From Candidatus Gottesmanbacteria bacterium RBG_16_52_11 (GTDB lineage Bacteria > Patescibacteriota > Microgenomatia > UBA10105 > UBA927), in assembly GCA_001779095.1 (NCBI GenBank), contig MFJD01000004.1, positions 173,031 through 237,030 of the forward strand: 64,000 nt of DNA, given 5' to 3'. The notes below the pieces were generated by a model. The model worked only from the letters and a program-made list of their open reading frames with translations, was not told the DNA's origin and searched no databases. Shown one piece after another: positions 23,234-56,315 of this stretch. The translations under genes were made by a program, and so were the position numbers. Positions within the stretch are counted from its first letter, which is position 1, and each line of letters starts with the position of its first letter.

Positions 23234-23315
23234 GCGCCTATCATAGCACGGGAGGCGGGCCGGTCTTGCACAAGCCGCCGGCTATGGGCGATAATACGTG
23301 CTTGTCATACCTGTT

Positions 23316-33443: not shown

Positions 33444-33512
33444 ATTCTGAAAATATTCGTTACTCTAACAGTGTATATGAACCACTATCCAATATGTTCC
33501 GAGGCAGTCAGT

Positions 33513-36678: not shown

Positions 36679-36774
36679 GGTACTTCCGGTATGGAAACTT
36701 CGATTTCCCTTAAAGTCATGATTATACTAACATATAGGATTATGACAGAGAGGAATTGAATTCCATATATACTT

Positions 36775-37518: not shown

Positions 37519-37577
37519 ATCCCGTAAAATACTAATGGTATACTCGATAATTATCGTCCGGTAATAATTTTATTAGA

Positions 37578-38282: not shown

Positions 38283-38373
38283 TTCCTTAATTATTCGAAC
38301 AGACAGATGTGGGATTTCCCGGTAAGAATAGATTATTTTTACTTTAAAGTAGTATAGCTGTTTTTGAGTTGGT

Positions 38374-39579: not shown

Positions 39580-39651
39580 AAATAAGGGAAAGGATCGTGT
39601 TCGCAATAAATTAATAAGACACTGCGGAGCGTTATTCCGCTGCCAGCATAT

Positions 39652-40806: not shown

Positions 40807-41790
40807 ATGAACGTACTGGTTACCGGCGCGGGGGGTTTCATCGGCAGTCACATGGTGGATCACTTACTGGAAAAGGGCCACAGTGTTACCGGCTTGGATA
40901 TATTTTCCCGGGGTAAGGAAGAGCATCTACCGTCGAAACAGTATGGAAACCTGCTCCGGCTGATCCAGGCAGACGTGTCTGACCGCACGGCGCTACGGGA
41001 GAAATATTTCCGGGGCGTCGACTGGGTGTTTCACTTCGCCGGCCGCTCCAGTAACGTCAAGTCGCTCGAGAATCCGCCGGAGTACCATGCCGTCAATGCC
41101 ACCGGTACGCTGAACATGCTGATTGCTGCCCATAAGGCTAAGGTGAAACGGTTCGTCTACGCGGCATCGTATTCGTGTTACGGCCAGCCACGAAAGTTTC
41201 CTACCCCGGAAACGGCGCTACTCAAGCCGGAATTCCCGTATGCCCTGACTAAGCTGGCAGGCGAACGCTATACACTGCACTGGCATCGGGCATTCGGATT
41301 GCCGACGATATCCCTGAGGATGACCAGCGTTTATGGGCCGAAAATCCGGACCGGTGGGAACTTCGGGCCAGTAGTCTCACTTTTTGTCGGGCAGAAAACG
41401 GACAGGAAGCCGTTTACAGTAGCCGGTGACGGCAGCCAGAGCCGGGATTTCGTGTATATCGATGACGTGGTTGAAGCGTTTCTGGCTGCTGCCCGGTCGG
41501 ATGTTGCCGGGGAAGTATTTAACGTCGGCAGCGGCCGGTCAGTCAGCCTCAATCGACTGGTGGAACTGCTAGGCGGTCCGGTGACATATGTCTCCAGAAG
41601 GCCGGGAGAAGTCAATAAAACTCTGGCGGATATAAAGAAAATTAAAAAATATTTGGGGTGGACTCCAAAGGTACGTTTTAACCACGGAATCAGAAGGGTG
41701 CTTGAAAGTGCAGGACAAACGGTGAAGCCCGGATTTAATGTCAGAACAATCCGTCCGTCAACAAACAGGCGGAAAGGCGGACACGTATGA
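40807..41790 (+). CDS. NAD-dependent sugar epimerase/dehydratase
   Basis: LVTGAGGFIGSHMVDHL, YALTK and SVYGPK motifs identify the family. About 55% identical to the 26732 gene product. Confidence 0.8.
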   Translation: MNVLVTGAGGFIGSHMVDHLLEKGHSVTGLDIFSRGKEEHLPSKQYGNLLRLIQADVSDRTALREKYFRGVDWVFHFAGRSSNVKSLENPPEYHAVNATGTLNMLIAAHKAKVKRFVYAASYSCYGQPRKFPTPETALLKPEFPYALTKLAGERYTLHWHRAFGLPTISLRMTSVYGPKIRTGGNFGPVVSLFVGQKTDRKPFTVAGDGSQSRDFVYIDDVVEAFLAAARSDVAGEVFNVGSGRSVSLNRLVELLGGPVTYVSRRPGEVNKTLADIKKIKKYLGWTPKVRFNHGIRRVLESAGQTVKPGFNVRTIRPSTNRRKGGHV

Positions 41791-42539
41791 AGAAGGTTAG
41801 TAAATTGAGCAGGGCGAAGACAGGAAAAACCGGTACCGGTATCATCGTGATGGCATACAACGAAGAAAAGAATCTGGGTCCGGCCCTGGACGGTCTGTTG
41901 CGGGAAGTCCCCAAAGTTACCGATGACTTCGAGATACTGGTCATAGACGACGGATCGGATGACTCAACCGGCAATGTTGCCGATAAGTACGGCCGGAAAA
42001 GCCGGCATATCCGGGTGGTCCACCACCGGGAAAACCGGGGATTCGGCCGTTCTTTCCGCAGTGGTGTCAGCCTGACCCGGAAGCGGTACGTGGTGGGATT
42101 CCCCGGTGATAACGATACATCACCCGCATCCCTGGCGCAGCTAGTCAGGCGGGCAAACGACCGCACGGTCGTGACCTGTTATCCGACGGACCTCAGTAAC
42201 CGTTCGGCATTCCGCCATCTGATATCCAAGTCGTTCGTGGTGCTGATGAACGCTGTTTTCAGAATGAACCTGAAATACTTCAACGGGTCATTCATATACC
42301 TCACCGAAGCGGTTAAAAACCTGAATCTTAAGTCAGACGGATTTGCCATATACGCCGAAGCCAAAGTCCGGCTGCGGCATCTGGGATATCCTTTTGAGGA
42401 AATTCCGTTCATTTATACGGGCAGAAAGCACGGTACGTCCAAAGCAGTAACCGGCAAAAGCGTCCGGGAGACTCTGGAAACGATCATTACTTTAGTGAAG
42501 GATATATATCTTAAAAAAAGAATAAATTATTCTAATTAA
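41787..42539 (+). CDS. GT2 family glycosyltransferase (DPM1/GtrB-like)
   Basis: GIIVMAYNEEKNLGPALDGLLREVP..LVIDDGSDDST. The C-terminal 6 codons (RINYSN) are encoded by the ATTATTCTAATTAA repeat motif. Confidence 0.75.
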   Translation: MKKVSKLSRAKTGKTGTGIIVMAYNEEKNLGPALDGLLREVPKVTDDFEILVIDDGSDDSTGNVADKYGRKSRHIRVVHHRENRGFGRSFRSGVSLTRKRYVVGFPGDNDTSPASLAQLVRRANDRTVVTCYPTDLSNRSAFRHLISKSFVVLMNAVFRMNLKYFNGSFIYLTEAVKNLNLKSDGFAIYAEAKVRLRHLGYPFEEIPFIYTGRKHGTSKAVTGKSVRETLETIITLVKDIYLKKRINYSN

Positions 42540-44320: not shown

Positions 44321-44845
44321 ATGCTAAAAAAATACCCGTCCGCTAAAAGCACGACGTTTTATTTCAACGAAAGCATTATCACCATTGACACCGGTCTGAT
44401 CAGAAGGCTGAAGGATTCATCCCGGAAGGACAAGTTAGGCAGGGCGCGGGTATGCCTCCATTCCGGACCGGATGCAGCGGTACAGGAAATGATCATCGCC
44501 ATGGACCGGAAAACGTATGTCAGGCCGCACCGGCACCACACGAAAACCGAGTCCACACATATTATCGAGGGAGAACTGCTGATAATACTTTTTGACGATA
44601 CCGGTAAACCGGTCCGGCGGATCAGTTTGCGGGCTGGAAAAACGGGGCAACCGTTTGCCTGCCGCATACCGCAGATGACCTGGCATACCCAGATACCTCA
44701 GACCCAAACCGCCGTGATCCACGAAATCATCAGCGGTCCTTTCAGTTCCGGCAGTTCAGATTTTGCTACCTGGGCACCGGAGGAGGGGGATACGGAAGCC
44801 TCAGACCGGTACATCAGAAAAATTAACCGCATAGCCCGCAGATAG
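44321..44845 (+). CDS. cupin-fold protein, WbuC-like (sugar-pathway associated)
   Basis: 174 aa. RVCLHSG...VRPHRHH.TESTHIIEGELLI is a cupin metal-binding His cluster arranged as in the WbuC family. The call is tentative. Confidence 0.45.
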   Translation: MLKKYPSAKSTTFYFNESIITIDTGLIRRLKDSSRKDKLGRARVCLHSGPDAAVQEMIIAMDRKTYVRPHRHHTKTESTHIIEGELLIILFDDTGKPVRRISLRAGKTGQPFACRIPQMTWHTQIPQTQTAVIHEIISGPFSSGSSDFATWAPEEGDTEASDRYIRKINRIARR

Positions 44846-44898
44846 ATTGGTTTTCTTTCCTTGAATCCCGTAAGAAAGATGATATTATCATTGCGAAG

Positions 44899-46440
44899 AT
44901 GGAAGGGCAGTTATCCAAAATAAAACGCGTCTCAAGTCTGGCAAAGATTACCGCCAGACTGAAGAAAGACGGCAAAAGAATAGTTCTGTGCCACGGGGTT
45001 TTTGACCTCGTACATCCGGGTCATGTCAGGCATTTCGCCTCCGCCCGTAACCACGGTGACGTGCTGATCGTCACCATCACCGCCGATAAGTTCGTCAACA
45101 AAGGGCCCGGCAGGCCGATATTCCGTCAGGAGCTGCGGGCCGAAGTGCTGGCTGCGATTGCCTTCATTGACTACATAGCGATAGTTAACTCCGGTTCGGC
45201 TGTTGACGCTATCCGGAAAATCCGGCCGGATTATTACGTAAAAGGGCCTGATTACCGCAACCGTAAGCCGACACCGTCGGTACCCCGGAAGCTGGGCGAA
45301 GAGGAGAAGGCGGTGCTGTCAGTCGGCGGACAGCTGATATTTACCGATGATGCGGTCATCTACAGCTCGTCCAAAATCATCAGCGATTACCTGGAGGTGT
45401 ATCCTCCCCGGACTAAACGGTTCCTGACGGAAATGAAACGGAAATACACGTCGGAAAAACTGATTGCCGACCTGACAAAACTGAAAAAACTCAAAATTCT
45501 AGTAATCGGGGATGCCATTATCGACCAGTACCATTACTGCCTGCCGATGGGAAAATCATCCAAGGAACCGGTAATGGTGCACCGGTATGTGGCGGACGAG
45601 TCCTACATGGGCGGAGTCCTGGCGACTGTCAACCACCTGTCATCCCTTTCCCGAAACCTGACGCTCCTGACAGTACTCGGGAAGAAAAATTCATTCAGGT
45701 CGTTTATCACCCGTCGTCTGCGTCCCCAGGTCAAGCCGGTCTTTCTTTACCAGTCCAAAGACCCCACCATCATTAAACGCAGGTTCCTCGACTTGAATAA
45801 CCGGCAGAAATTGTTCCAGATCAGCTACCTGCATGAGGATTTCGTGCTGCCGGAGCAAACGGAAAAATTAATCCTGGGGTACCTGAAAAAAGAACTGCCG
45901 AAGTTCGACCTGGTGGTGGTCAACGATTACGGCCACGGCATGATGACACCCAAGACCATCCGCCATATCTGCCGGCACGCCAGATATATCGCATTAAACG
46001 TCCAGACCAACAGCGCTAATTTCGGATTCAATGTCGTCACTAAATACCCGCGGGCTGACTTCGTTTGCATCGATAACCAGGAAATCCGGCTGGCGACCCA
46101 GGACCGTTTCAGCGACCTGACACTGTTGATCCGCTCGATCCAGCGGAAACTGAAATGTTCGTTCATGATCGTCACCAAGGGACCATACGGCGCAGTCGGT
46201 TATTCCCAGCAGGCGGGATTCGTCGAGGTGCCGGCGCTAACCGACCGGATCGTGGACCGGGTCGGAGCCGGGGACGCGCTGTTTGCCATTGCCTCACCCT
46301 GCGTTTACGCCGGCATGCCGCCGGACGTGGTGACTTTTATGGGTAACGTAGCCGGCGCTCTCAAAGTCCAGGTCATCGGCAACAAAAAGCAGATCGAGTT
46401 TGTGGACCTGGCAAAATATATCACCAGATTACTAAAATAA
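44899..46440 (+). CDS. bifunctional sugar-phosphate nucleotidyltransferase (cytidylyl/adenylyltransferase-like, HxGH) + pfkB-family sugar kinase; HldE-like with reversed domain order
   Basis: The N-terminal part (IVLCHGVFDLVHPGHVRHFASARNHGDVLIVTITAD) resembles TagD / RfaE domain II. The C-terminal 300 aa form a ribokinase-like domain with VDRVGAGDALFA (the DTxGAGD anion hole). Neighbouring genes fit a nucleotide-heptose pathway. Confidence 0.7.
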   Translation: MEGQLSKIKRVSSLAKITARLKKDGKRIVLCHGVFDLVHPGHVRHFASARNHGDVLIVTITADKFVNKGPGRPIFRQELRAEVLAAIAFIDYIAIVNSGSAVDAIRKIRPDYYVKGPDYRNRKPTPSVPRKLGEEEKAVLSVGGQLIFTDDAVIYSSSKIISDYLEVYPPRTKRFLTEMKRKYTSEKLIADLTKLKKLKILVIGDAIIDQYHYCLPMGKSSKEPVMVHRYVADESYMGGVLATVNHLSSLSRNLTLLTVLGKKNSFRSFITRRLRPQVKPVFLYQSKDPTIIKRRFLDLNNRQKLFQISYLHEDFVLPEQTEKLILGYLKKELPKFDLVVVNDYGHGMMTPKTIRHICRHARYIALNVQTNSANFGFNVVTKYPRADFVCIDNQEIRLATQDRFSDLTLLIRSIQRKLKCSFMIVTKGPYGAVGYSQQAGFVEVPALTDRIVDRVGAGDALFAIASPCVYAGMPPDVVTFMGNVAGALKVQVIGNKKQIEFVDLAKYITRLLK

Positions 46441-46452
46441 CCGGAAACAAAT

Positions 46453-46500
46453 CCAATTAATCTAATTGTTCTAAACAGGGAAATTATTCTAATTTAAATC
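46453..46500 (+). promoter_or_regulatory. ATTATTCTAA-related motif array upstream of epimerase gene
   Basis: atccaattaatctaattgttctaaacagggaaATTATTCTAAtttaaatc lies 10 nt before the ATG at 46510. Confidence 0.4.
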
Positions 46501-46509
46501 ATTAATGGG

Positions 46510-47565
46510 ATGACAGACTCAGGGAAAAAGGTATCAAGAGAGGGATCCATAAAGACGGTCCTGGTGACCGGCGGCGGAGGATATGTCGGGGCTGTATTGG
46601 TGCCGAAACTGCTGGCCGCAGGGTACCGGGTGAGAGTGCTTGACTGGTTTATTTACGGTGAAGACGTCTTTGGTAAATACGGTAAGGATCCGAAACTGAC
46701 TATACTCCGGGGAGACTTACGGGACCGGAAATCAGTGGAAAAAGCTCTGAAAGGCGCCGATGCCGTCATCCATCTGGCATGTATATCCAATGATCCCAGT
46801 TTCGAACTCGATCCGGCTCTTGGCAGGACAGTGAATTACGATGCGACCGCACTTCTCACCGACTTGTCCTGCGACGAAGGTGTAACGCGTTTCGTTTTTG
46901 CCTCCTCATCGAGCGTCTACGGGGTCAAAACCGAATCCGACGTCACCGAGGACCTGCCGCTTAAACCGCTCACCGATTACTCTAAATACAAGGCGCTCTC
47001 GGAGGAATACATATTAAAAAAAGGCAGCCGGGATTTTACCGTGCTGATCCTGCGGCCGGCTACGGTCTGCGGCTATTCCCCGCGGATGCGGCTGGATCTG
47101 ACCGTGAATATCCTGACCATCAATGCCCTGATTAACAACCGGATAACGGTATTCGGCGGCTCGCAGCTGCGGCCCAACATCCACATCGGCGACATGACCG
47201 ACCTCTACGTCAAAACCATGGAGTTCCCCGGGGAAAAAATTGCCGGAAAGATTTATAATGCCGGTTACGAGAACATGAAGGTATTGGATATTGCGCGCAT
47301 GGTCAAAAAAGTCCTGGGAAAAAGGGATATAGAAATATCCGTCAAACCGACGGACGACCTGCGGTCCTACCACATCAATTCGGACAAAATCAGGCGGGAG
47401 CTGGGATTTGCCCCCCGGCACACCATCCGGGAAGCCATATCCGATATTAAAAGCGCCTACGAATCGGGAAAGCTGCCGGACCCCACGACGGATATCAGAT
47501 ATGTAAACATCAAAACCATGAAAGCCCTGTCCGGAAAGCTTGCGGGTAAATCCGGGTATGCCTAA
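46510..47565 (+). CDS. NAD-dependent sugar-nucleotide epimerase (candidate heptose 6-epimerase role)
   Basis: VLVTGGGGYVGAVLVPKL and YSKYK (YxxxK) motifs identify the family. 351 aa. Located between the HldE-like and GmhA-like genes. Confidence 0.75.
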   Translation: MTDSGKKVSREGSIKTVLVTGGGGYVGAVLVPKLLAAGYRVRVLDWFIYGEDVFGKYGKDPKLTILRGDLRDRKSVEKALKGADAVIHLACISNDPSFELDPALGRTVNYDATALLTDLSCDEGVTRFVFASSSSVYGVKTESDVTEDLPLKPLTDYSKYKALSEEYILKKGSRDFTVLILRPATVCGYSPRMRLDLTVNILTINALINNRITVFGGSQLRPNIHIGDMTDLYVKTMEFPGEKIAGKIYNAGYENMKVLDIARMVKKVLGKRDIEISVKPTDDLRSYHINSDKIRRELGFAPRHTIREAISDIKSAYESGKLPDPTTDIRYVNIKTMKALSGKLAGKSGYA

Positions 47566-48238
47566 AACCAAAGCAGCCAATACGATATCCCCTGTCAACC
47601 AAATACTCGAAGATCATATCTCCTCCTACATCATGGAACTGATCCGCTGCCTGGTGATGCTGGATAAAATAAAGATAGGGGAGGCAGTCGGAATCCTGAC
47701 CCAGGCTTACCGGGACGGGAAAAAGGTCTTCATCATCGGTAACGGCGGCAGCGCTTCCAACGCTTCGCATATGTCCTGCGATCTGAGCAAAGGCACGCTG
47801 TCGCGGATTTACGATGACAGCGAACCCCGGTTCAAAGCCTATTCACTGACTGATAACGTCGCCATCATGACTGCATTCGGCAATGACCTGAGTTACGAGG
47901 ATATTTTCGTCCAGCAGCTGCGAAACCTGGTGGAAAGCGGGGACGTGGTTATAGCGCTGTCAGGCAGCGGGAACAGTCCGAACGTGATAAAAGCCGTCCT
48001 GTATGCCAGGAAGTGTCAGGCAAAAACAATCGGATTCTTAGGGTTTAAGACCGGGGGGAAACTGGCTGCCATCGTAGACTGCGCCGTCATTGCTGACAGC
48101 AACAAGTACGGCCAGTGTGAGGACATACAGCTGATACTGGACCATATCCTGACGTCCTGGCTGGCCATCGTGAAAGCAGAGCACGATAACGGGAATAAGG
48201 GGAGACGTAAAGCGGGAAGGCCCCGAAAGACGGGTTAA
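47540..48238 (+). CDS. gmhA: SIS-domain sedoheptulose-7-phosphate isomerase (GmhA-like)
   Basis: KKVFIIGNGGSASNASHMSCDL and VVIALSGSGNSPNVIKAV are the GmhA-type SIS motifs. The start is uncertain: in-frame Met codons lie at 47558 and 47633, and the track start overlaps the upstream gene by 26 nt. Confidence 0.7.
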   Translation: MRVNPGMPKTKAANTISPVNQILEDHISSYIMELIRCLVMLDKIKIGEAVGILTQAYRDGKKVFIIGNGGSASNASHMSCDLSKGTLSRIYDDSEPRFKAYSLTDNVAIMTAFGNDLSYEDIFVQQLRNLVESGDVVIALSGSGNSPNVIKAVLYARKCQAKTIGFLGFKTGGKLAAIVDCAVIADSNKYGQCEDIQLILDHILTSWLAIVKAEHDNGNKGRRKAGRPRKTG

Positions 48239-48239
48239 A

Positions 48240-49301
48240 CTAATTTACTTCAGGACGGCGGGCAAAGGCGGTGCCGGCCGGCGTGTCAGAATCCCCGTTG
48301 ATCCGGAAATTTTCCGGCTGTTTGGCGGAGTATCCGGACTCCAGAAGCGATTTGGCACCGAAGGCTTTCACCAGTGTTCCGGTCACCCTGCCTTCGGCAT
48401 CACTAACTGAGAAAGTATCACCCCGGTTGTTCCTGACCCCTTCCAGGTAAATATAGGTGTTGTTTTCGATATATTTAACAACTTCATTCCAGTTGTCAAA
48501 GACCCTGGCTGCTCCGGATTCCGTCAGTGTCTTTACCATCAGTTCAGTTGGCTTGTTTCCTTCTCCGACAACGGCAGGCACGGCAAAAACCGTTGCACCG
48601 GCTGCGACTGCAGCCTTAACTCCGGTCGGCGAGTCTTCGAAAACCAGAAGCCCTGAAGGGGAGATATTCATCTCTTTTGCCGCCAGCTGATAGACGTCCG
48701 GCGAAGGTTTGCCGTGTTTGACGTCATGCCTAAGAAGGACCGGATTACCGTACAGCATCTCCCGCAGTCCCGAACGGTCAATAATGATGCCGGCCTGGGT
48801 GCTCCTGGTCACCGAACAGATGGTGTACGGCACTCCGAGCTGGGAGACCATCTGGATCAGTCTGGCGGAACCTTCGCGCGGCCGGAAAACGGCCTCACTG
48901 AACATCCCGTCGAATATCGCATCCTTAAGTTCGATCATCTTCCCGACATTCCAGGCTTTGAGCAGATCTCCGGAACCGGGATTTTTCCGGGCAAGTTCAA
49001 GCAGTTGCTCCATAACCGCGGTATCGGGACCGCCGACAAATGACGGAACCTGCCGCATGATTTCGTCCACCGAATCGGGAAGAGTAATTCCCAAAGCTCC
49101 GGCTACTTCCCGGTGCGCCCGGTGATGAAGTGATTCAAGATCCACCAGGGTGCCTTCCAGGTCCAGTGCCACACCGGAGAATATTTTCAGCGTATCCTCG
49201 GCTTCTGGTTTAAGTATCAGGGCGCCATGCATATAATAAACTAGATTGTTAATTATAGGATTAAAGTTACCTTTCGTCAATTTCAGACTACCTAAGCTCA
49301 A
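48240..49301 (-). CDS. HAD-superfamily hydrolase (subfamily IA, phosphatase/beta-PGM-like) with about 100-aa C-terminal extension
   Basis: VALDLEGTLVD (motif I DxDGT), SVTRS (motif II), KPSPDVY (motif III) and FEDSPTGVKAAVAAG (motif IV). A candidate heptose-bisphosphate phosphatase by context. Confidence 0.65.
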   Translation of the reverse strand: MSLGSLKLTKGNFNPIINNLVYYMHGALILKPEAEDTLKIFSGVALDLEGTLVDLESLHHRAHREVAGALGITLPDSVDEIMRQVPSFVGGPDTAVMEQLLELARKNPGSGDLLKAWNVGKMIELKDAIFDGMFSEAVFRPREGSARLIQMVSQLGVPYTICSVTRSTQAGIIIDRSGLREMLYGNPVLLRHDVKHGKPSPDVYQLAAKEMNISPSGLLVFEDSPTGVKAAVAAGATVFAVPAVVGEGNKPTELMVKTLTESGAARVFDNWNEVVKYIENNTYIYLEGVRNNRGDTFSVSDAEGRVTGTLVKAFGAKSLLESGYSAKQPENFRINGDSDTPAGTAFARRPEVN

Positions 49302-49349
49302 AAATGGTAAAATTGACGGTCAGAGTAGTGTGGGTAGAAACCGGATATT

Positions 49350-49952
49350 ATGGAAACCGTCATCGGCATTGACCTTGATAATACGATAATCAGTTTTGAC
49401 CGCATTCTCCATGCCAGCGCATCGGAACTGGGGCTGGTCGGCCGGGGGATACCGGTCCGCAAGGATGCGGTGAAGCAGGCCATACTTGAGCGCCACGGAG
49501 ACCGGGTGTGGCACCATATCCAGAAAATTGCCTACGGCCTCAGGATGGAGGAAGCCCGACTTATCCGGGGAGCGGTGCCATTCATCAGCGAATGTCTCAG
49601 AAGTGGTATCAGGGTATATATAATCAGCCATAAAGCTGAATTAGTGGAGGTGAACGGAGTCAGAATTAATCTGAGGAATAAAGCTATGCAGTTTTTAAAG
49701 AAAAGGTTCATAATAGGGTCTGAAACTGATCGGCTTAATGAACAGAATATCTTTTTCGAGCCGACACGGGCCGACAAGCTGGCACGGATTGCCAAACTCA
49801 GGTGTACGCATTTCATCGATGACCTGGAAGATGTTTTTCGCGAAGACGGATTCCCGGAAACCGTCACAAAAATCCTGCTCGGCCATACGACTGATAGTTC
49901 CTGGATGACCTGTCCGACATGGGGAAAAGTAAGTCAATACTTTTTCGGGTGA
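49350..49952 (+). CDS. small HAD-like phosphatase (tentative)
   Basis: N-terminal IGIDLDNTII (DxDxT motif I) in a 200-aa protein. The other HAD motifs were not clearly resolved. Confidence 0.4.
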   Translation: METVIGIDLDNTIISFDRILHASASELGLVGRGIPVRKDAVKQAILERHGDRVWHHIQKIAYGLRMEEARLIRGAVPFISECLRSGIRVYIISHKAELVEVNGVRINLRNKAMQFLKKRFIIGSETDRLNEQNIFFEPTRADKLARIAKLRCTHFIDDLEDVFREDGFPETVTKILLGHTTDSSWMTCPTWGKVSQYFFG

Positions 49953-49956
49953 GCAA

Positions 49957-50946
49957 ATGAAGGCAGCATTAGAAGATATTGTGAGCAGGATATTGGGGAC
50001 AACCGGCTTATCCCTAAGACCGGGTCCGGCCGGATTCAACAGTACAATTTATATATCGGATACGGATTCCGGACGGTACCTGGTCAAGGTGTATAAGCGA
50101 AGACCCCGGGACCATCGGAACCGGCTGGAAACGGAATTCCGGAGCCTCAAGTACCTCTGGGCGCAGGGTTTGCGGCAAGTGCCGGAACCGGTGGGACGAA
50201 ACCAAAGCCGGGCAATCGGAATATACCGGCATATGACCGGAGTACGCCCAGAGACAAAAACAATCGCTGATTTCGATCAGGCAGTCCGGTTCCTGCGGCA
50301 GCTTAGGTCATTAAGCCGCAAGACCTCTTCTGAGAGGTTCAGCCGGGCCTCGGAAGCGTGTTTCTCGCTTTCCGAATACCTGGATGCGGTACGCCGACGG
50401 TATGCCCGACTGGTGCGGGTAGCCGATACCCGACTGCAGAAGTTTCTCAGGGACGGGTTTCTGCCGTATTTCCGGGAGACTGCCGATTATGCAGCCGGAG
50501 AATATGCCCGGGCCGGACTGACACGGTTTACCCGTCTGCCCCGTAAAGCCAGGACTTTAAGCCCTTCCGACTTCGGATTCCACAATGCGCTCAAAGATGA
50601 CCGGGGACGGATTATTTTCCTGGATTTTGAGTATTTCGGCTGGGATGATCCGGCCAAACTTATTTCGGATTTCCTGCTCCATCCGGCAATGGAACTGGCC
50701 CAGGTGGAGCAGCGCTATTTCTTCCATAAGGCATACCCCCTTTACAAAAATGCGGATCTCCGGGCCCGCCTGCCGTCTGTATACCGGATTTGCGCTCTGA
50801 AATGGTGTATGATCATGCTCAATGCGTTTCTCCGGAAGGAAGACGCCGGGGTCCAGAGCCGGCAACTGACTAAAGCCAAGTCAATGCTGTCACGGATTGC
50901 CGCGGAAGTCCGGACCGGAAATTTGCCCTTCAGCGGCGAATTATGA
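49957..50946 (+). CDS. APH/choline-kinase-like phosphotransferase
   Basis: GFHNALKDDRGRIIFLDFEYFGWDDPAKLISDF carries the catalytic loop and the D[FW]E..(6)D motif of the family. 4-nt overlap with the downstream gene. Confidence 0.6.
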   Translation: MKAALEDIVSRILGTTGLSLRPGPAGFNSTIYISDTDSGRYLVKVYKRRPRDHRNRLETEFRSLKYLWAQGLRQVPEPVGRNQSRAIGIYRHMTGVRPETKTIADFDQAVRFLRQLRSLSRKTSSERFSRASEACFSLSEYLDAVRRRYARLVRVADTRLQKFLRDGFLPYFRETADYAAGEYARAGLTRFTRLPRKARTLSPSDFGFHNALKDDRGRIIFLDFEYFGWDDPAKLISDFLLHPAMELAQVEQRYFFHKAYPLYKNADLRARLPSVYRICALKWCMIMLNAFLRKEDAGVQSRQLTKAKSMLSRIAAEVRTGNLPFSGEL

Positions 50947-51788
50947 GGAATAATTACCGTAAATCCATTCCGCTTGACCGGCGCTCGCTGGCGCTGCGGA
51001 AACTGATCCTGTCCGCATATACCTCAGCCCGGCGGGGACACCTGGGCAGTTATTTGTCGCTGGTTGAGATCCTCAGAGTGCTGTATGACTCGGTTCTCAG
51101 GTACGATCCGCGCAAACCCGACTGGCCCGGGCGTGACAGGTTTATCCTGAGCAAAGGCCATGGGTCAGTGGCCCTCTATGCCATACTTGCCGATAAGGGA
51201 TTTTTCTCTCCGGAACTGCTGCCTACATTCGTGAAATTTGACAGCATGTTCGGTCAGCATCCGGACAGCCGCAAAGTCCCGGGAGTCGAGGCTTGTACCG
51301 GATCGCTGGGGCATGGGTTGTCAGTCGGGGTGGGGATGGCGCTTTCTGCCCGAATCGACAAACAGAAGCACCGGGTCTTCGTAGTCATTAGTGACGCTGA
51401 GAGCCAGGAGGGTTCGGTCTGGGAAGCGGCGCTTTCCATTGCCAAGCATAACCTGACAAATCTGGTGGTAATTGTTGACTATAACCACATGCAGAGCTAC
51501 GGGCGGACGCGGGAAGTGCTTGATTTGGAGCCGCTGGCTGCCAAATGGAAAAGCTTCGGATTTGGCGTAGAACAGGTGAACGGGCATGACGTAAAAAAGC
51601 TCAGGCAGTCATTTCTGAAAGCAGTGAATAAACCCAGCCGGCCACAGGTAGTCATCTGCCATACGGTCAAGGGCAAGGGGATTGCGGGGATAGAAAATAA
51701 CGTGTCCTGGCACCACAAAACAAAACTCAGTGATGAGGATGTGGAAATGTTATACGCGAATCTAAGACAACGGGGGTCAGAGAATTAA
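50943..51788 (+). CDS. transketolase, N-terminal subunit (second copy)
   Basis: DRFILSKGHGSVALYA and GSLGHGLSVGVGMAL..VVISDAESQEGSVWEAAL identify the subunit. About 55% identical to the 20078 gene product and lacks its insertion. Confidence 0.8.
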   Translation: MRNNYRKSIPLDRRSLALRKLILSAYTSARRGHLGSYLSLVEILRVLYDSVLRYDPRKPDWPGRDRFILSKGHGSVALYAILADKGFFSPELLPTFVKFDSMFGQHPDSRKVPGVEACTGSLGHGLSVGVGMALSARIDKQKHRVFVVISDAESQEGSVWEAALSIAKHNLTNLVVIVDYNHMQSYGRTREVLDLEPLAAKWKSFGFGVEQVNGHDVKKLRQSFLKAVNKPSRPQVVICHTVKGKGIAGIENNVSWHHKTKLSDEDVEMLYANLRQRGSEN

Positions 51789-51820
51789 GCGCTGGTGAAA
51801 ATGTTTAGTATGCCGTTAAT

Positions 51821-51848
51821 TCAAAACTCAAAAATCAAAAGTCAAAAC
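51821..51848. repeat. heptanucleotide tandem repeat (TCAAAAN)4 in the transketolase N/C intergenic spacer
   Basis: tcaaaac tcaaaaa tcaaaag tcaaaac. Shares the 14-mer ATCAAAAGTCAAAA with the 14486-14540 repeat. Confidence 0.6.
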
Positions 51849-51934
51849 TACAACGTAAAATTCAAGACCGGAAAACGATAAAGAAATTTTCCATTGCATG
51901 CAGCTTAAATCATAATAACCGGAACCGTAATCAT

Positions 51935-52957
51935 ATGAGAAAGACCAGCCTGGAACAGGTTTATCTGTTAGCTAAAAAAGACAAACGGGTGGTATTCGTG
52001 GGATCGGACCTGGGACACGGGACACTCGATAAGTTCAAAGCCGAAATGCCGGACCGGTTCTTCATGGAAGGAGTGTCGGAGCAGCATCTTACGGGCATGC
52101 TGGCCGGAATGGCGTTATCGGGCAAAGTGCCGTACTTCAATACCATCGCCGTGTTTGCCTACCGGCGGTGCCTGGAGCAGGTGATACTCGACGTAGCCAT
52201 CCCGAACCTGCCGGTCAGGATCATCGCCTCGGGTGGCGGATTCGTCTACGTGCCGCTGGGACCGACCCACCTGGCGACAGATGACCTGGCGATACTCCGG
52301 ACCGTACCCAACATGACGGTTATCGCTCCGGCTGATGCAGCGGAGATGGCACGGCTGATGCCTCTGACACTCAACTGGCCCGGGCCGATATATATCAGGC
52401 TCGCCAAAGGCGGGGATCCCGTAGTCACCCCGGCCGACGTACCCTTCAGAATCGGCAAAGCCGTGCCGGTAGCTACCGGCTCGGACTTACTGATCATTAC
52501 CACCGGCATCACCCTGCAGTTTGCACTTGTTGCCCGGAAAATGCTGGCTGCTGAGGGGATTAAAGCCGGAGTTCTCCATGTCCCGACCGTCAAGCCGCTG
52601 GACCAAGACGGGATTCTGTCGCGGATCGCCAAAGTCCGGGGTGTAGTCACTATTGAGGAGGGAGTCCGGCTTGGGGGGTTGGGCAGCGCCATCGGGGAGC
52701 TGATGCTTGACGAGGGACTCGTGCGGCCGCTGACGCGGATCGGACTTCCGGACGAATTCACCCTCCACTACGGTACACAACTGGAGCAGTTGGCATATTA
52801 CGGCATATCCGGGGATGGGATAGTCCGGGCAGCCCGGAAGCTCCTGGGTGGTCGGGTCAGGACGCGGACGCTGGCTCACGCAGCGCGTCGTAAACTCTTA
52901 AGAGTCCGTCCTCAACCCTCAACACAGGTACAACGGGGTACAAGTCGTCGGGCGTAA
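51935..52957 (+). CDS. transketolase, C-terminal subunit (second copy)
   Basis: FFMEGVSEQHLTGMLAGMAL and GPTHLATDDLAILRTVPNM identify the subunit. The last 40 aa are a basic tail that overlaps the convergent gene at 52857-53657 by about 100 nt. Confidence 0.8.
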   Translation: MRKTSLEQVYLLAKKDKRVVFVGSDLGHGTLDKFKAEMPDRFFMEGVSEQHLTGMLAGMALSGKVPYFNTIAVFAYRRCLEQVILDVAIPNLPVRIIASGGGFVYVPLGPTHLATDDLAILRTVPNMTVIAPADAAEMARLMPLTLNWPGPIYIRLAKGGDPVVTPADVPFRIGKAVPVATGSDLLIITTGITLQFALVARKMLAAEGIKAGVLHVPTVKPLDQDGILSRIAKVRGVVTIEEGVRLGGLGSAIGELMLDEGLVRPLTRIGLPDEFTLHYGTQLEQLAYYGISGDGIVRAARKLLGGRVRTRTLAHAARRKLLRVRPQPSTQVQRGTSRRA

Positions 52958-53657
52958 AAATCAGGGCAAAGTCCTCGGGAGTGGTGGCGTCGGTAGGCGG
53001 ATACTGTATCCGGTAAAATTCCATGGATTTAGCAAATACCGCCGGCAGGTCAGGATCATTACCCAGCAGCAAATCCCTGACAGTCTCGGCGCAGAGCTGG
53101 TCCTCCATCAGGTTAGGATCTCCGGCAAATACCGGTTCCCGGCCGCCCGAGGGTACCAGTGTGATCCGTTCCGCCCTGCCGTGATTTGTAACCAGCCATT
53201 CCGACAGGGTCCGGAGATTGGAGTAATTGCCCACCACTATCGGACCGGCCCCCTTACTCCACAGCTCGCTTAAGGTGTAGGTACCGTTGTTGGTCAGAAT
53301 TACGACCGTCTTCCCACTAACGTCGGCAGCTGCCACTTCGGCCGGATGATTGGAACAGGTGAATTTCCCGGACAGGTCCGGATCAGGACTTTCGCCGAAG
53401 AGGGCGGCATCGGGAAACCGATTGAGGGCTGCGCGGACGGTGTCCCGGGTCACCACATAAAGTCTTTTCGCGCTGATAGCCAGGCGGTTGATGTTCTGGG
53501 AGGCAGAGATCACATCAAACATTACCGCCGGACCTGTCAGTTTTTCCGGCAGATCCCAGGGATAGGCAATGTCAATGGTGCCTTGGTACGTAAATTCTCC
53601 GGACTTGGGTGTTTCCTGGGCCAGCATATATGCCGCGGGAAAATTATGGTCAGTCAA
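52857..53657 (-). CDS. hypothetical protein (266 aa); weak resemblance to 2-phosphosulfolactate phosphatase (ComB) fold
   Basis: PAVMFDVISASQNI and VVILTNNGTY blocks are reminiscent of ComB-family motifs. This is low confidence. Confidence 0.3.
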   Translation of the reverse strand: MTDHNFPAAYMLAQETPKSGEFTYQGTIDIAYPWDLPEKLTGPAVMFDVISASQNINRLAISAKRLYVVTRDTVRAALNRFPDAALFGESPDPDLSGKFTCSNHPAEVAAADVSGKTVVILTNNGTYTLSELWSKGAGPIVVGNYSNLRTLSEWLVTNHGRAERITLVPSGGREPVFAGDPNLMEDQLCAETVRDLLLGNDPDLPAVFAKSMEFYRIQYPPTDATTPEDFALIFTPDDLYPVVPVLRVEDGLLRVYDALREPASAS

Positions 53658-54081: not shown

Positions 54082-54113
54082 AGGAGATTGTGCGGGCCAG
54101 GAAACTGATTATA

Positions 54114-55652: not shown

Positions 55653-56315
55653 ATGGGTAAGCTGCTTCGGATCATTACCCCACTACATAAACGGACAACC
55701 CGGGACTATATCGGCCGGATGACGGACAACAAGGTCGAGGCCATGGGAGTGGCCAAAAAGTACGGCCGGGATTACTGGGACGGGGACAGGCGGTACGGTT
55801 ACGGCGGATACCGCTACGACGGGAGATGGGAAAAAGTCGCCCGGAAACTGATCCGTACCTACAAACTGAAAAAGAATGCCAGGATTCTCGATGTCGGCTG
55901 CGGCAAGGCGTTCCTTCTCTATGAACTCAAGAAACTGCTGCCCCAATCCACTATCGTGGGCATGGATATTTCCCGCTGGGGGCTGTCACACGCTCCGAAG
56001 GAAATCCGGAAATACTTACGGGTCCACCGGGCAGAGGATACATACCCATTTAAGGACTGGGAGTTCGATCTGGTAATTTCCATCACTACGCTCCACAATC
56101 TGACCATCGACAAACTGGCTGCGGCATTGGGCGAAATCGAGCGGGTGGGAAAACACAAGTATATTGCGGTCGAGAGCTATAGGAACGACCCGGAGCAGTT
56201 CAATTTACAGTGCTGGGCGCTCACCTGCGCTGCCTTTTTCAGCAAAAGGGAATGGGTCTGGCTCTACCGGCATTTCGGGTATACCGGGGATTACGAGTTT
56301 ATTTATTTTGAGTAA
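55653..56315 (+). CDS. class I SAM-dependent methyltransferase
   Basis: [12 protein letters not shown] (motif I) and [12 protein letters not shown] motifs identify the family. Confidence 0.7.

What the first reader, a model, noticed from the sequence alone, without database searches (positions are those of the whole stretch)
44321..52957. Self-contained nucleotide-heptose pathway physically coupled to a dedicated split transketolase
Consecutive genes encode the following:
- a WbuC-like cupin (44321-44845);
- an HldE-like nucleotidyltransferase + pfkB kinase (44899-46440);
- an SDR epimerase (46510-47565);
- a GmhA-type SIS isomerase (47540-48238);
- a HAD-IA phosphatase (48240-49301, minus strand);
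- a small HAD-like protein (49350-49952);
- an APH-like kinase (49957-50946);
- a split transketolase N+C pair (50943-52957).

By established biochemistry, transketolase makes sedoheptulose-7-P. GmhA isomerises it, a kinase/phosphatase/nucleotidyltransferase sequence makes NDP-heptose, and an epimerase converts the D,D to L,D form.

A pathway-embedded transketolase supplying the C7 precursor, plus an extra APH-like kinase and cupin (possible further heptose modification), is an unusual complete 'pentose-phosphate-to-activated-heptose' cassette inside a glycosylation island.
Basis: partly seen in the sequence, partly recalled or inferred. Interest (0 to 1): 0.7.

Follow-up and report, generated by a model that had tools for sequence, protein, structure and literature searches.

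The report
Heptose-type sugar cassette with altered transketolase
The genes are real and form part of a sugar-building gene cassette shared by many uncultured bacteria, but its "transketolase" has a rebuilt substrate pocket and most likely decorates the activated sugar with a two-carbon unit instead of supplying its seven-carbon precursor.

Summary
All nine ORFs exist at the stated coordinates with the stated domains. The window is from Candidatus Gottesmanbacteria RBG_16_52_11 (CPR).

The genes belong to a cassette that recurs in 81 reference genomes of CPR, Omnitrophota, Planctomycetota, Elusimicrobiota and others, and in two cultured bacteria. Typical order: SDRb, reversed HldE-like fusion (FUS), GmhA-like SIS, SDRa, [small HAD, APH-like kinase, split TK], methyltransferase, Zn-ADH, cupin.

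A heptose-type core is supported. Both fusion domains and the SIS protein match heptose-specific models best. GmhB-type phosphatases flank the core in some loci. SDRa most resembles 6VO6, which I believe is the GDP-heptose C4-dehydrogenase Cj1427.

The "dedicated S7P supply" reading is not supported:
- The TK keeps its ThDP and catalytic residues but replaces the acceptor/phosphate residues (H461G, D469L, R520K, S385G), as do all cassette TKs from the metagenome-assembled genomes (MAGs).
- E1 alpha/beta or YerE-like ThDP enzymes, which cannot make S7P, occupy the same slot elsewhere.
- SIS and FUS do not co-vary with ThDP type.
- A second altered TK pair lies 30 kb upstream.

The minus-strand HAD-IA gene is not conserved (0/83). 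The best reading is a ThDP carboligase tailoring a keto-heptose nucleotide. That role has been proposed, but not proven, for Streptomyces split TKs.

The parts
39652..40742 (+). Two small multi-pass membrane proteins (39652-40155 and 40152-40742). They are candidate flippase subunits for a polyprenyl-phosphate sugar.
   Evidence: No Pfam or NCBIfam hit. Homologs sit next to the GT2 and SDRb genes in L010, L012 and L013. Two similar small genes follow a GT2 in L091. The flippase role is an inference by analogy with ArnE/ArnF.
40807..41790 (+). SDRb: a GalE/WbpP-type extended SDR and the most constant partner of the fusion gene. 42572-43600 is a paralog.
   Evidence: Pfam Epimerase 197 bits. Best PDB matches are UDP-hexose 4-epimerases (181-143 bits). 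Present in 39 of 40 full loci, usually directly upstream of the fusion gene.
41787..42539 (+). GT2 glycosyltransferase of the polyprenyl-phosphate sugar synthase type (ArnC/AglJ/PpgS-like).
   Evidence: Co-occurs with the cassette in about 20 loci.
44321..44845 (+). WbuC-family cupin, a candidate keto-sugar epimerase.
   Evidence: TIGR04366 130 bits, above the cut-off of 42. Cupins of this type (DUF6016) close the cassette in L001, L028, L031, L048, L062, L082, L089 and L090. The epimerase role is an inference.
44899..46440 (+). FUS: bifunctional nucleotidyltransferase (N-terminal) plus PfkB sugar-phosphate kinase (C-terminal). It is HldE-like with the domain order reversed.
   Evidence: rfaE_dom_II 105.8 bits and rfaE_dom_I 118.6 bits, both below the equivalog cut-offs. 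Best PDB matches are HldC 5x9q and HldA 4e84. 33% and 22% identity to the two halves of E. coli HldE. The HxGH and GAGD motifs are invariant in 15 family members. More than 7000 homologs.
46510..47565 (+). SDRa: a Cj1427-like SDR and the candidate NDP-heptose C4-dehydrogenase that creates the keto group.
   Evidence: Best PDB match 6vo6/6vo8, 141 bits, full length, about 37% identity, with the shared SPRMRLDL-VN segment and YxxxK motif. HldD model only 64 bits. Lies immediately before the ThDP genes in most loci.
47540..48238 (+). GmhA-like SIS isomerase of a distinct clade.
   Evidence: gmhA TIGR00441 100.8 bits (cut-off 209), DiaA 68.9. All the best PDB matches are phosphoheptose isomerases. 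The signature is H61, D65 (Glu in GmhA), E172 (Gln in GmhA) and H180, with R69 lost, in all but two (L027, L069) of 53 cassette homologs.
48240..49301 (-). HAD-IA beta-phosphoglucomutase-like hydrolase. It is lineage-specific and not a conserved cassette member.
   Evidence: Found in 0 of 83 related loci. It is on the opposite strand. An 11/12 sigma-70-like site lies inside its annotated 5' end.
49350..49952 (+). 'had': a small capped HAD-fold phosphatase from an unannotated family, the functional partner of the APH-like kinase.
   Evidence: Invariant DxDxT, SHK, K and DD motifs. No Pfam assignment in any of the 120 listed homologs (263 found). Model pLDDT 96.5. Best TM scores 0.66-0.68 with 5'(3')-deoxyribonucleotidases; no GmhB among the listed matches. 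Fused to APH in L030 and L082.
49957..50946 (+). APH/choline-kinase-fold small-molecule kinase. Its stop overlaps the TKN start by 4 nt.
   Evidence: Pfam APH 42 bits. Model pLDDT 95.3. Equally distant from LicA/ChoK, APH(2'')/APH(9), NahK and homoserine kinase. Three independently chosen homologs all lie in the same cassette, directly before TKN-TKC.
50943..51788 (+). TK-like N subunit (ThDP/PP domain).
   Evidence: Transketolase_N 152 bits. 238 bits to the C. hydrogenoformans split TK 6yak. H26, H66, H100, D155, N185 and H261 are conserved. The GDG motif reads SDA.
51935..52957 (+). TK-like C subunit (Pyr plus C domains) with a remodelled acceptor pocket.
   Evidence: 185 bits to 6yaj. E411, H473 and R358 are kept. 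H461 is Gly, D469 is Leu, R520 is Lys and S385 is Gly, as in the cassette TKs of all MAG loci. G-L-K is the commonest pocket among the 150 nearest cluster representatives.
52857..53657 (-). ComB-like (2-phosphosulfolactate phosphatase family) protein, a possible accessory phosphatase.
   Evidence: PF04029 48.6 bits. Homologs lie directly upstream of the fusion gene in L010 (48% identity) and L011 (31% identity).
55653..56315 (+). MTz: a class I SAM methyltransferase. It is a conserved follower of TKN-TKC and lies outside the finding's coordinates.
   Evidence: Median 62% identity. Found in 20 of 40 full loci, directly after TKC in L013, L022, L028, L031, L032, L040, L048, L089, L090 and L091.
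56626..57660 (+). Zn-dependent alcohol dehydrogenase, partner of MTz and candidate reductase of the new side-chain ketone.
   Evidence: Found in 15 of 40 full loci, directly after MTz. The reductase role is an inference. FabG or adh_short proteins take this place in L088 and L089.

Best explanation
The region is one copy of a widespread, uncharacterised cassette that makes and then tailors a nucleotide-activated heptose-type sugar for the cell envelope.

Proposed steps:
1. The GmhA-like SIS protein isomerises a ketose phosphate, most simply sedoheptulose-7-P from ordinary metabolism.
2. The reversed HldE-like fusion phosphorylates C1.
3. A phosphatase removes the distal phosphate. Its identity in this window is unresolved.
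4. The fusion's nucleotidyltransferase domain forms the NDP-heptose.
5. The Cj1427-like SDR (46510) oxidises the NDP-heptose to a keto-heptose.
6. The split TK-like ThDP enzyme transfers a two-carbon hydroxyacetyl unit onto that carbonyl. This gives a C-branched or chain-extended sugar.
7. The Zn-ADH reduces the new side-chain ketone, the methyltransferase methylates, and the cupin epimerises.
8. A GT2, two small membrane proteins and PMT_2-type GT-C enzymes deliver the sugar through a polyprenyl-phosphate carrier.

Shown here: domain identities, the active-site signatures, gene order and co-occurrence.

Inferred: every substrate and product, the position attacked by the ThDP enzyme, and the roles of the had-APH pair and of the Zn-ADH, methyltransferase and cupin.
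For: Heptose core:
- Both fusion domains and the SIS protein match heptose-specific models far better than any alternative.
- GmhB-type phosphatases sit beside SIS or FUS in L030, L034, L067 and L077. In L003 one is fused to an HldC-like nucleotidyltransferase.
- SDRa's best solved relative is 6vo6/6vo8 (141 bits, about 37% identity).
- The function of Cj1427 as the GDP-heptose C4-dehydrogenase that feeds tailoring enzymes is described in PMC10680097.

Tailoring role of the TK:
- The cofactor and catalytic residues are kept, but H461G, D469L, R520K/T and S385G/I are found in the TKC-like subunits of all the MAG loci that carry one. The characterised C. hydrogenoformans split TK keeps H, D and R.
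- G-L-K is the dominant pocket among the 150 nearest cluster representatives, and canonical H-D-R is rare.
- 35 of 40 full loci carry a ThDP enzyme next to the fusion gene: TK-like in 26, E1 alpha in 12 and YerE-like in 5. The E1 alpha/beta pair occupies the same slot, after SDRa or SIS.
- The window's closest SIS relatives (67, 63 and 63% identity) and closest FUS relative (61%) lie in E1-type loci. Nearest-neighbour ThDP type matches 26/41 against 23.9 +/- 3.5 expected by chance.
- A second altered TK pair lies in the same island, with no SIS or FUS nearby.
- Recurrent neighbours are keto-sugar tailoring enzymes: DegT aminotransferases, TylCIII-type C-methyltransferases, RmlD reductases and radical-SAM enzymes.
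- The literature describes YerE-like, E1-type and (as a proposal) split-gene TK enzymes that branch deoxy-keto sugars. The branch ketone is then reduced or methylated (PMC12247030).
Against: - There are no biochemical data. Split-TK sugar branching itself has never been shown in vitro.
- R358 is kept, and Lys at position 520 could still bind a phosphate.
- The cassette TK of S. carbinolicus keeps the canonical H461/D469/R520 pocket.
- TK and SIS tend to co-occur (19 of 26 TK loci; Fisher p = 0.09).
- The tightly linked, sometimes fused, had-APH pair is unexplained. It would fit a scheme that handles sugar phosphates upstream of the isomerase.
- All the heptose enzymes score below the NCBIfam equivalog cut-offs, and the SIS clade has a changed catalytic tetrad. 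The sugar therefore need not be D-glycero-D-manno-heptose.
- The link between 6VO6 and Cj1427 rests on my memory and on the matching deposit name. It was not verified with the tools.
- All loci were collected through the fusion gene, so TK-like genes outside this context were not sampled.
Confidence: 0.55

Rival explanations
1. The split TK is an ordinary transketolase dedicated to supplying sedoheptulose-7-P to a GmhA/HldE/GmhB/HldD-type pathway that ends in NDP-L,D-heptose.
For: TK lies next to GmhA-like and HldE-like genes. The ThDP and catalytic His residues are intact. The closest solved structure is a genuine split transketolase. 19 of 26 TK loci also have SIS. The S. carbinolicus cassette TK has a canonical pocket.
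Against: H461, D469, R520 and S385, which hold the sugar-phosphate substrates in canonical TK, are replaced in every MAG cassette TK. E1 alpha/beta and YerE-like enzymes, which cannot make S7P, replace the TK in the same slot, and do so with near-identical SIS and FUS. All 6 full loci that have SIS but no TK carry E1 or YerE instead. No SDR resembles HldD best. A second altered TK pair lies far from any heptose gene.
Confidence: 0.1
2. Non-canonical precursor supply. The TK-like enzyme condenses a C2 donor with an unusual, possibly unphosphorylated, aldose. The APH-like kinase adds a terminal phosphate handle. SIS and FUS process the product. The small HAD then removes the handle. This would give an NDP-sugar other than D-glycero-D-manno-heptose.
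For: had, APH, TKN and TKC form a tight unit with 4-nt gaps or overlaps. had and APH are fused in several genomes. A kinase plus a phosphatase acting on one position would explain the fusion. The SIS clade has an altered catalytic tetrad. The loss of phosphate-binding residues fits an unphosphorylated acceptor.
Against: SIS and FUS of TK-type and E1-type loci are intermixed, and the window's closest relatives are of E1 type. TK-like pairs without had-APH have even fewer phosphate-binding residues (T520, I385), yet they sit in the same slot. A methyl-ketone product of E1 or YerE enzymes could not be a substrate for an aldose-ketose isomerase, yet those loci keep SIS. The unit is followed by a methyltransferase and a reductase, which is typical of tailoring.
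Confidence: 0.15
3. The had-APH-TK-MT-ZnADH module builds a separate small substituent, for example a methylated polyol or hydroxy-acid phosphate. This is attached to the glycan independently of the heptose nucleotide.
For: The module behaves as a unit that is present in only part of the cassettes (10 of 40 full loci for had/APH). The APH fold is as close to choline/ethanolamine kinases as to sugar kinases. In S. carbinolicus the TK arm sits among pseudaminic-acid-type genes, not next to FUS.
Against: In every case examined, the module lies inside or next to a FUS cassette, directly after the Cj1427-like SDR. No dedicated transferase or second activating enzyme travels with it. The E1 alpha/beta replacements in the same slot match the known NDP-sugar branching enzymes.
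Confidence: 0.1
4. The adjacency has no functional meaning. The island simply packs several independent sugar pathways side by side.
For: The island is large and heterogeneous, with many SDRs, methyltransferases and glycosyltransferases. Three minus-strand genes interrupt the cassette in this window.
Against: The same order recurs across at least ten phyla and in two cultured bacteria. Start/stop overlaps are present.
Confidence: 0.03

Closest known systems
ADP-heptose pathway of Gram-negative bacteria (GmhA, HldE or HldA+HldC, GmhB, HldD)
   Same: It has an SIS isomerase closest to GmhA. It has a PfkB kinase and a cytidylyltransferase-fold nucleotidyltransferase closest to the two HldE domains. 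GmhB-type phosphatases are present in some related cassettes.
   Different: The domain order of the fusion is reversed. All scores are far below the equivalog cut-offs. The GmhA catalytic/Zn tetrad H-E-Q-H is changed to H-D-E-H, and R69 is lost. There is no GmhB in the window. No SDR is HldD-like. The host is a CPR bacterium, a group generally thought to lack LPS (from my own knowledge).
Campylobacter jejuni GDP-heptose modification pathways (Cj1427 C4-dehydrogenase, cupin C3/C5 epimerases, C4 reductases; PMC10680097)
   Same: The SDR next to the ThDP genes is most similar to 6vo6/6vo8 (141 bits). A cupin and further SDRs accompany it. The logic matches: activate the heptose, oxidise it to a keto hub, then tailor it.
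   Different: The activating enzymes are HldE-like, not HddA/HddC-like. The cupin is of the WbuC/DUF6016 family. The C. jejuni pathways contain no ThDP enzyme. The identity of 6VO6 as Cj1427 is from memory.
ThDP-dependent branching of deoxy-keto nucleotide sugars: YerE-like lyases, E1-type alpha/beta enzymes (aldgamycin, kibdelomycin KbDH) and the split-gene TKs proposed for miharamycin and amipurimycin (PMC12247030)
   Same: A split TK sits in a nucleotide-sugar cluster directly after an oxidoreductase. It is followed by a reductase and a methyltransferase. All three ThDP classes occur interchangeably in this cassette family.
   Different: According to the review, the known split-TK candidates number 13, all come from Streptomycetes, and none has been characterised in vitro. 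Here the clade is large, spans many uncultured phyla, acts in a heptose-type context, and travels with a had-APH pair. I could not compare sequences with the Streptomyces enzymes.
Split-gene transketolase of Carboxydothermus hydrogenoformans (PDB 6YAK/6YAJ)
   Same: It has the same two-subunit architecture and is the best solved relative (238 and 185 bits). The ThDP-binding and catalytic His/Glu residues are identical.
   Different: The C. hydrogenoformans enzyme keeps H461, D469 and R520. The window enzyme has G, L and K at those positions, and reads SDA instead of GDG.
Arn-type lipid-carrier glycosylation (ArnC GT2, ArnE/F flippase, ArnT GT-C)
   Same: A GT2 of the polyprenyl-phosphate sugar synthase type, two small membrane proteins and several PMT_2 GT-C proteins surround the cassette.
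   Different: There is no sequence-level equivalence to the Arn proteins. The acceptor is unknown. The analogy comes from my own knowledge of the system.

Membership tests
GmhA (sedoheptulose-7-phosphate isomerase) | Scores above the curated equivalog cut-off of the gmhA models | tested here: not met
   TIGR00441 100.8 bits against a cut-off of 209. It is still the best family, ahead of DiaA at 68.9.
GmhA (sedoheptulose-7-phosphate isomerase) | Catalytic/Zn tetrad His61, Glu65, Gln172, His180 (E. coli numbering) | tested here: inconclusive
   H61 and H180 are kept. E65 is Asp and Q172 is Glu in the window protein and in all but two (L027, L069) of 53 cassette homologs (L069 keeps Glu65 and has Gln at 180; L027 has Leu at 180). 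R69 is lost. The changes are conservative but systematic.
HldE (bifunctional heptose-7-P kinase / heptose-1-P adenylyltransferase) | Kinase domain N-terminal and adenylyltransferase C-terminal, scoring above the equivalog cut-off | tested here: not met
   The order is reversed: nucleotidyltransferase at residues 17-162 and kinase at 193-505. Scores are 161 against 521 for the full model, and 118.6/345 and 105.8/181.5 for the two domains.
HldE (bifunctional heptose-7-P kinase / heptose-1-P adenylyltransferase) | Both domains specifically closest to the heptose enzymes rather than to generic PfkB or TagD families, with the catalytic motifs intact | tested here: met
   The next-best PfkB family scores 25 bits or less, and TagD scores 40 bits. 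The best PDB matches are HldC and HldA. HxGH and GAGD are invariant.
GmhB (heptose-1,7-bisphosphate 7-phosphatase, HAD-IIIA) | A HAD-IIIA histidinol-phosphatase-like protein in the cluster | tested here: not met
   tblastn with E. coli GmhB finds nothing in the window. 48240 is HAD-IA. 49350 is a capped HAD nearest to deoxyribonucleotidases. GmhB-like genes do occur in L003, L030, L034, L067 and L077.
HldD (ADP-L-glycero-D-manno-heptose 6-epimerase) | An SDR scoring best with the heptose 6-epimerase models | tested here: not met
   TIGR02197 gives 64 bits (SDRa), 96 bits (40807) and 109 bits (42572), against a cut-off of 275. GalE/LegB/WbpP-type or 6vo6-type matches are better.
Transketolase (EC 2.2.1.1) | ThDP/Mg binding (GDG...N), cofactor-activating Glu411, and catalytic His26/His66/His100/His261/His473 | tested here: met
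   All are conserved. GDG reads SDA, with the Mg-binding Asp kept.
Transketolase (EC 2.2.1.1) | Sugar-phosphate binding residues Arg358, Ser385, His461 and Arg520, and the C2-hydroxyl-reading Asp469 | tested here: not met
   The pocket reads R358, G385, G461, L469, K520. The same pattern occurs in the TKC-like subunits of all the MAG loci that carry one. The C. hydrogenoformans split TK has H, D and R at 461, 469 and 520.
ThDP-dependent nucleotide-sugar branching enzymes (YerE-like / E1-type / split TK) | Encoded in a nucleotide-sugar cluster next to an oxidoreductase able to form the keto acceptor, with downstream reductase or methyltransferase | tested here: met
   The order SDRa-(had-APH)-TKN-TKC-MT-ZnADH is conserved. 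E1 alpha/beta and YerE-like enzymes occupy the same slot elsewhere.
ThDP-dependent nucleotide-sugar branching enzymes (YerE-like / E1-type / split TK) | Demonstrated carboligation onto a keto sugar | not testable with these tools
   This needs enzyme assays. It has not been shown even for the Streptomyces split TKs.
Cj1427-type NDP-heptose C4-dehydrogenase | Full-length homology to Cj1427 exceeding that to epimerases or dehydratases | tested here: inconclusive
   141 bits to 6vo6/6vo8 against 112 bits for the next hit (PelX-type epimerase). The assignment of 6VO6 to Cj1427 is from memory.

The most novel reading that the evidence does not exclude
A large, previously unrecognised clade of split transketolase-like enzymes with a G461/L469/K520 pocket, working with a dedicated phosphatase-kinase pair, forms C-C bonds on nucleotide-activated keto-heptoses. 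This would give CPR bacteria, Omnitrophota, Planctomycetota and other uncultured phyla C-branched or nine-carbon surface sugars not yet described. It would also be the first natural transketolase-type reaction on a nucleotide sugar outside Streptomyces antibiotics.
Probability: 0.35. Interest if true: 0.75.

Novelty: new variant of a known kind. Interest (0 to 1): 0.6.

Why it matters
If the reading is right, it has four consequences.

1. Transketolase-type C2 transfer onto nucleotide sugars is so far only a hypothesis, resting on 13 Streptomyces genes. It would turn out to be a common way of diversifying cell-surface sugars across much of the uncultured bacterial world.

2. It would define a sequence signature that separates these carboligases from metabolic transketolases: G461/L469 with K or T at position 520. 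That would prevent pentose-phosphate-pathway mis-annotation in CPR and other reduced genomes, where the presence or absence of TK is used to infer metabolism.

3. It would give biocatalysis a pool of natural TK variants with remodelled acceptor pockets.

4. Two cultured carriers were found, Azospirillum oryzae KACC 14407 and Solidesulfovibrio carbinolicus DSM 3852. They make the question experimentally tractable.

Tried and rejected
- An exact look-up of the fusion protein found nothing. The source was identified through the 100%-identical P0001.
- Literature searches for TK in heptose, O-antigen, CPR, nucleotide-sugar or flagellin-glycosylation contexts gave nothing direct.
- Krug et al. 2024 and Romo et al. 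2019 are not held. The Streptomyces split TKs could therefore not be compared.
- Profile searches of had and APH against the PDB, Pfam and NCBIfam gave only marginal hits: MtnX at E = 0.21 and LicA at E = 0.004.
- Their confident structures gave only generic fold matches.
- The promoter/terminator scan was at chance level.
- The 147-nt gap between TKN and TKC shows no frameshift.
- A crude ORF-clustering count undercounted SIS and was replaced by tblastn counts.
- I considered HAD-IA 48240 as the GmhB analogue and rejected it as a conserved component (0/83).
- I considered the SDRs as 4,6-dehydratases. I rejected this on reading the active-site strand: ASYSCYG, ASSTCYG and ASSSSVYG carry no Asp/Glu pair (sequences; the reading rests on my own knowledge).
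- Whether the genome holds a canonical TK elsewhere could not be checked, because only the 64-kb window is held.

Full report
**Observation.** Pfam and NCBIfam confirm the domain content.
- 44321: a WbuC-family cupin, above its curated cut-off.
- 44899: a two-domain protein with a cytidylyltransferase-fold nucleotidyltransferase at the N-terminus and a PfkB kinase at the C-terminus.
- 46510: an extended SDR.
- 47540: an SIS_2 protein whose best family is GmhA.
- 48240 (minus strand): a HAD-IA hydrolase.
- 49957: an APH-family kinase.
- 50943 and 51935: a split transketolase.
- 49350: a 200-aa protein that matches no library model. It has invariant HAD motifs, and its model (pLDDT 96.5) is a capped HAD fold.

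The genes are tightly packed. The APH stop overlaps the TKN start by 4 nt, and had and APH are 4 nt apart. The surroundings are a glycosylation island of glycosyltransferases, methyltransferases, SDRs and GT-C (PMT_2) proteins.

**Source and breadth.** The fusion protein is 100% identical to a hypothetical protein of Candidatus Gottesmanbacteria bacterium RBG_16_52_11, a CPR bacterium. The fusion belongs to a family of more than 7000 proteins. A scan of one genome per species returned 80 loci, nearly all from uncultured lineages: Gottesman- and Andersenbacteria, Omnitrophota, Planctomycetota, Elusimicrobiota, Margulisiibacteriota, Chloroflexota and others. Full-length homologs also exist on plasmids of two cultured bacteria, Azospirillum oryzae and Solidesulfovibrio carbinolicus.

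**A conserved cassette.** I ran tblastn of the window proteins against these loci. The recurrent order is SDRb, fusion, SIS, SDRa, [had, APH, TKN, TKC], methyltransferase, Zn-ADH, cupin.

Counts among the 40 loci with at least 6 kb on both sides:

| Gene | Loci |
|---|---|
| SDRb | 39 |
| SDRa | 29 |
| TK-like N subunit | 26 |
| SIS | 25 |
| Methyltransferase of the 55653 type | 20 |
| Zn-ADH of the 56626 type | 15 |
| had and APH | 10 each |
| Cupin | 6 |

- The minus-strand HAD-IA gene has no counterpart in any of 83 loci.
- Three APH homologs, chosen without reference to the fusion gene, all lie in the same cassette directly before TKN-TKC-MT.
- The finding's borders are therefore too narrow. 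They miss SDR 40807, MT 55653 and Zn-ADH 56626. In this window, three minus-strand genes separate the last two from TKC.

**The heptose-type core.**
- The kinase domain scores 118.6 bits with the HldE domain-I model, against 25 bits or less for any other PfkB family. The nucleotidyltransferase scores 105.8 bits with HldE domain II, against 40 bits for TagD. The SIS protein scores 100.8 bits with gmhA, against 68.9 for DiaA.
- The best solved relatives are HldC, HldA and phosphoheptose isomerases.
- The catalytic motifs HxGH and GAGD are invariant in the fusion family.
- GmhB-type phosphatases lie beside SIS or the fusion gene in L030, L034, L067 and L077. In L003 one is fused to an HldC-like nucleotidyltransferase.

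None of the proteins qualifies as an equivalog, however:
- All scores are well below the curated cut-offs.
- The domain order is the reverse of HldE.
- The SIS clade has a uniform altered tetrad. H61 and H180 are kept, Glu65 is Asp, Gln172 is Glu, and Arg69 is lost, in all but two (L027, L069) of 53 homologs.

Its best solved relative, over the full length at about 37% identity, is 6VO6/6VO8. I believe this is C. jejuni Cj1427, the dehydrogenase that converts GDP-heptose to the 4-keto hub used for further tailoring (function from PMC10680097). The link from that PDB code to Cj1427 is from memory.

**The transketolase is not a canonical one.** I aligned the window enzyme with E. coli TktA, the characterised split TK of C. 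hydrogenoformans (the best PDB match), and about 40 cassette-linked homologs.
- All cofactor and catalytic residues are kept: H26, H66, H100, D155, N185, H261, E411 and H473.
- The residues that hold the sugar-phosphate substrates are replaced: H461 to Gly, D469 to Leu, R520 to Lys, and S385 to Gly.
- Every TK-like C subunit in the MAG loci has Gly at 461 and almost always Leu at 469. R520 is Lys where had-APH is present and usually Thr where it is absent.
- An exhaustive search of 1.8 billion cluster representatives found 1546 relatives at E <= 1e-30. Of the 150 closest, about 48 have G-L-K and only about 8 have the canonical H-D-R, mostly at the lowest ranks.
- The window also holds a second split TK-like pair (20078-20986 and 23298-24248). 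It sits among SDRs and GT-C proteins, far from any heptose gene, and has Gly461 and Ala469.
- Caveats: R358 is retained, Lys520 is still basic, and the S. carbinolicus cassette TK keeps the canonical pocket.

**Interchangeable ThDP enzymes.**
- 35 of the 40 full loci carry a ThDP enzyme next to the fusion gene: TK-like in 26, E1 alpha/beta in 12 and acetolactate-synthase-like (YerE-like) in 5, with few overlaps.
- The E1 pair occupies the same position as TKN-TKC, directly after SDRa or SIS. Examples are L003, L004, L012, L070, L074 and the A. oryzae plasmid.
- E1 and YerE-type enzymes transfer acyl anion equivalents from 2-oxo acids and cannot make S7P. Their methyl-ketone products could not be isomerised by an aldose-ketose isomerase. 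Those loci nevertheless keep SIS.
- SIS and the fusion protein do not sort by ThDP type. The window's closest SIS relatives (67, 63 and 63% identity) and its closest fusion relative (61%) lie in E1-type loci. Nearest-neighbour type matching is 26/41, against 23.9 +/- 3.5 expected by chance.
- The association of TK with SIS is weak (19/7/6/8; Fisher p = 0.09).
- Other recurrent neighbours are the usual tools for tailoring keto-sugar nucleotides: DegT aminotransferases, TylCIII-type C-methyltransferases, RmlD-type reductases and radical-SAM enzymes.

**Literature.** A 2025 review (PMC12247030) describes three ThDP classes that branch deoxy-keto nucleotide sugars:
- YerE-like lyases.
- E1-type alpha/beta enzymes, as in aldgamycin and kibdelomycin.
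- Split-gene transketolases, as a proposal only. These are suggested to transfer a hydroxyacetyl unit in miharamycin and amipurimycin biosynthesis. The review counts 13 candidates, all from Streptomycetes and none characterised in vitro.

The review also notes that the introduced ketone is commonly reduced or methylated. That matches the Zn-ADH (or FabG/adh_short) and methyltransferase that follow the TK pair here. It further notes that the active YerE-like enzyme JanthE has CDG in place of GDG, so the SDA variant in the window's TKN need not mean inactivity.

**The had-APH pair.** The two proteins are fused into one polypeptide in L030, L082 and several database entries, so they act together. 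Both models are confident (pLDDT 96.5 and 95.3), but the fold matches are generic.
- had is a capped HAD phosphatase nearest to 5'(3')-deoxyribonucleotidases; GmhB does not appear among the 50 listed matches.
- APH is a kinase equally distant from choline kinases, aminoglycoside phosphotransferases and the sugar-1-kinase NahK.

Their role remains unresolved. They might supply the donor, or add and remove a transient phosphate handle.

**Most likely mechanism.**
1. A ketose phosphate, most simply S7P from central metabolism, is isomerised by the GmhA-like protein.
2. The fusion protein phosphorylates it at C1.
3. A phosphatase removes the distal phosphate. The window offers four candidates: had, HAD-IA, the ComB-like protein and a metallophosphoesterase.
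4. The fusion protein activates the sugar as an NDP-heptose.
5. SDRa oxidises it to a keto-heptose.
6. The TK-like enzyme adds a hydroxyacetyl unit to the carbonyl.
7. The Zn-ADH, the methyltransferase and the cupin finish the sugar.
8. A GT2 of the polyprenyl-phosphate type, two small membrane proteins and GT-C enzymes deliver it to the envelope.

Only the domain identities, residue patterns and gene linkage are shown here. All substrates and products are inferred.

**Verdict.** The heptose-type activation core is supported as "works like", but it fails membership of the canonical families. The central claim, a transketolase dedicated to supplying S7P, is not supported.

What is present is a widespread, uncharacterised variant of ThDP-dependent nucleotide-sugar tailoring. 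It is built on a reversed HldE-like fusion and on a distinct clade of split transketolase-like enzymes.

All the evidence is computational, and all loci were collected through the fusion gene. I rate the tailoring interpretation at about 0.55.

Noticed in passing
window 20078-20986 (+) and 23298-24248 (+): A second split transketolase-like pair, separated by a 753-aa minus-strand ORF with no family hit (20972-23233). SDRs, a YfhO-like protein and a PMT_2 GT-C protein flank it. Its C subunit also lacks the canonical acceptor residues (Gly461, Ala469) but keeps R520. It is 42% and 33% identical to the first pair.
   Followed up: partly
window 50943-51788, and 51789-51934: The ThDP motif GDG reads S-D-A in the window's TKN; most homologs have GDG and a few have SDG. 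A 147-nt AT-rich gap separates TKN from TKC, whereas the two genes abut or overlap in other loci. No frameshift is visible. TKC and the SIS protein both end in Arg/Lys-rich tails of about 20-35 residues that homologs do not seem to share.
   Followed up: partly
L030 (564-aa ORF), L082 (521-aa ORF); P0253, P0255, P0275, P0355: The small HAD phosphatase and the APH-like kinase are fused into a single polypeptide in several genomes.
   Followed up: partly
L003 8883-9959: A 358-aa protein directly upstream of the fusion gene. It is itself a fusion of an HldE-domain-II-like nucleotidyltransferase and a GmhB-type HAD-IIIA phosphatase. A 353-aa CTP_transf_like protein also lies near the fusion gene in the P0002 locus.
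   Followed up: partly
L088 (S. carbinolicus pDCAR1, NZ_CP026539.1) and L091: In these loci the cassette abuts nonulosonic-acid genes: pseB, pseC, pseF, and NeuB/NeuC-like and CMP-sugar synthetase-like genes. This raises the possibility of a link to flagellin-type or NulO glycosylation. The S. carbinolicus TK keeps the canonical H461/D469/R520 pocket.
   Followed up: partly
window 52857-55586 (minus strand): Three minus-strand genes interrupt the cassette between TKC and the methyltransferase: a ComB-like 2-phosphosulfolactate-phosphatase-family protein, a 143-aa ORF and a 490-aa metallophosphoesterase. ComB-like homologs lie directly upstream of the fusion gene in L010 and L011.
   Followed up: partly
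window 49252-49280 (minus strand): The best sigma-70-like match in the region (TTGACG, 17-nt spacer, TATAAT; 11 of 12) lies inside the annotated 5' end of the HAD-IA ORF. The real start may therefore be further downstream, and the gene may have its own promoter. Overall, the scan did not exceed chance.
   Followed up: no
window 32001-40000: G+C drops to 0.39-0.46, against about 0.52-0.55 elsewhere. This stretch lies just upstream of the cassette and holds methyltransferase, GT2 and acyltransferase genes. It may have been acquired horizontally.
   Followed up: no
P0002 locus (JGI 3300075153; no DNA available): In the closest relative of the window's fusion protein (66% identity), the SIS gene is 561 aa long. 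That is about 350 residues more than usual, and the extra part has no Pfam assignment.
   Followed up: no
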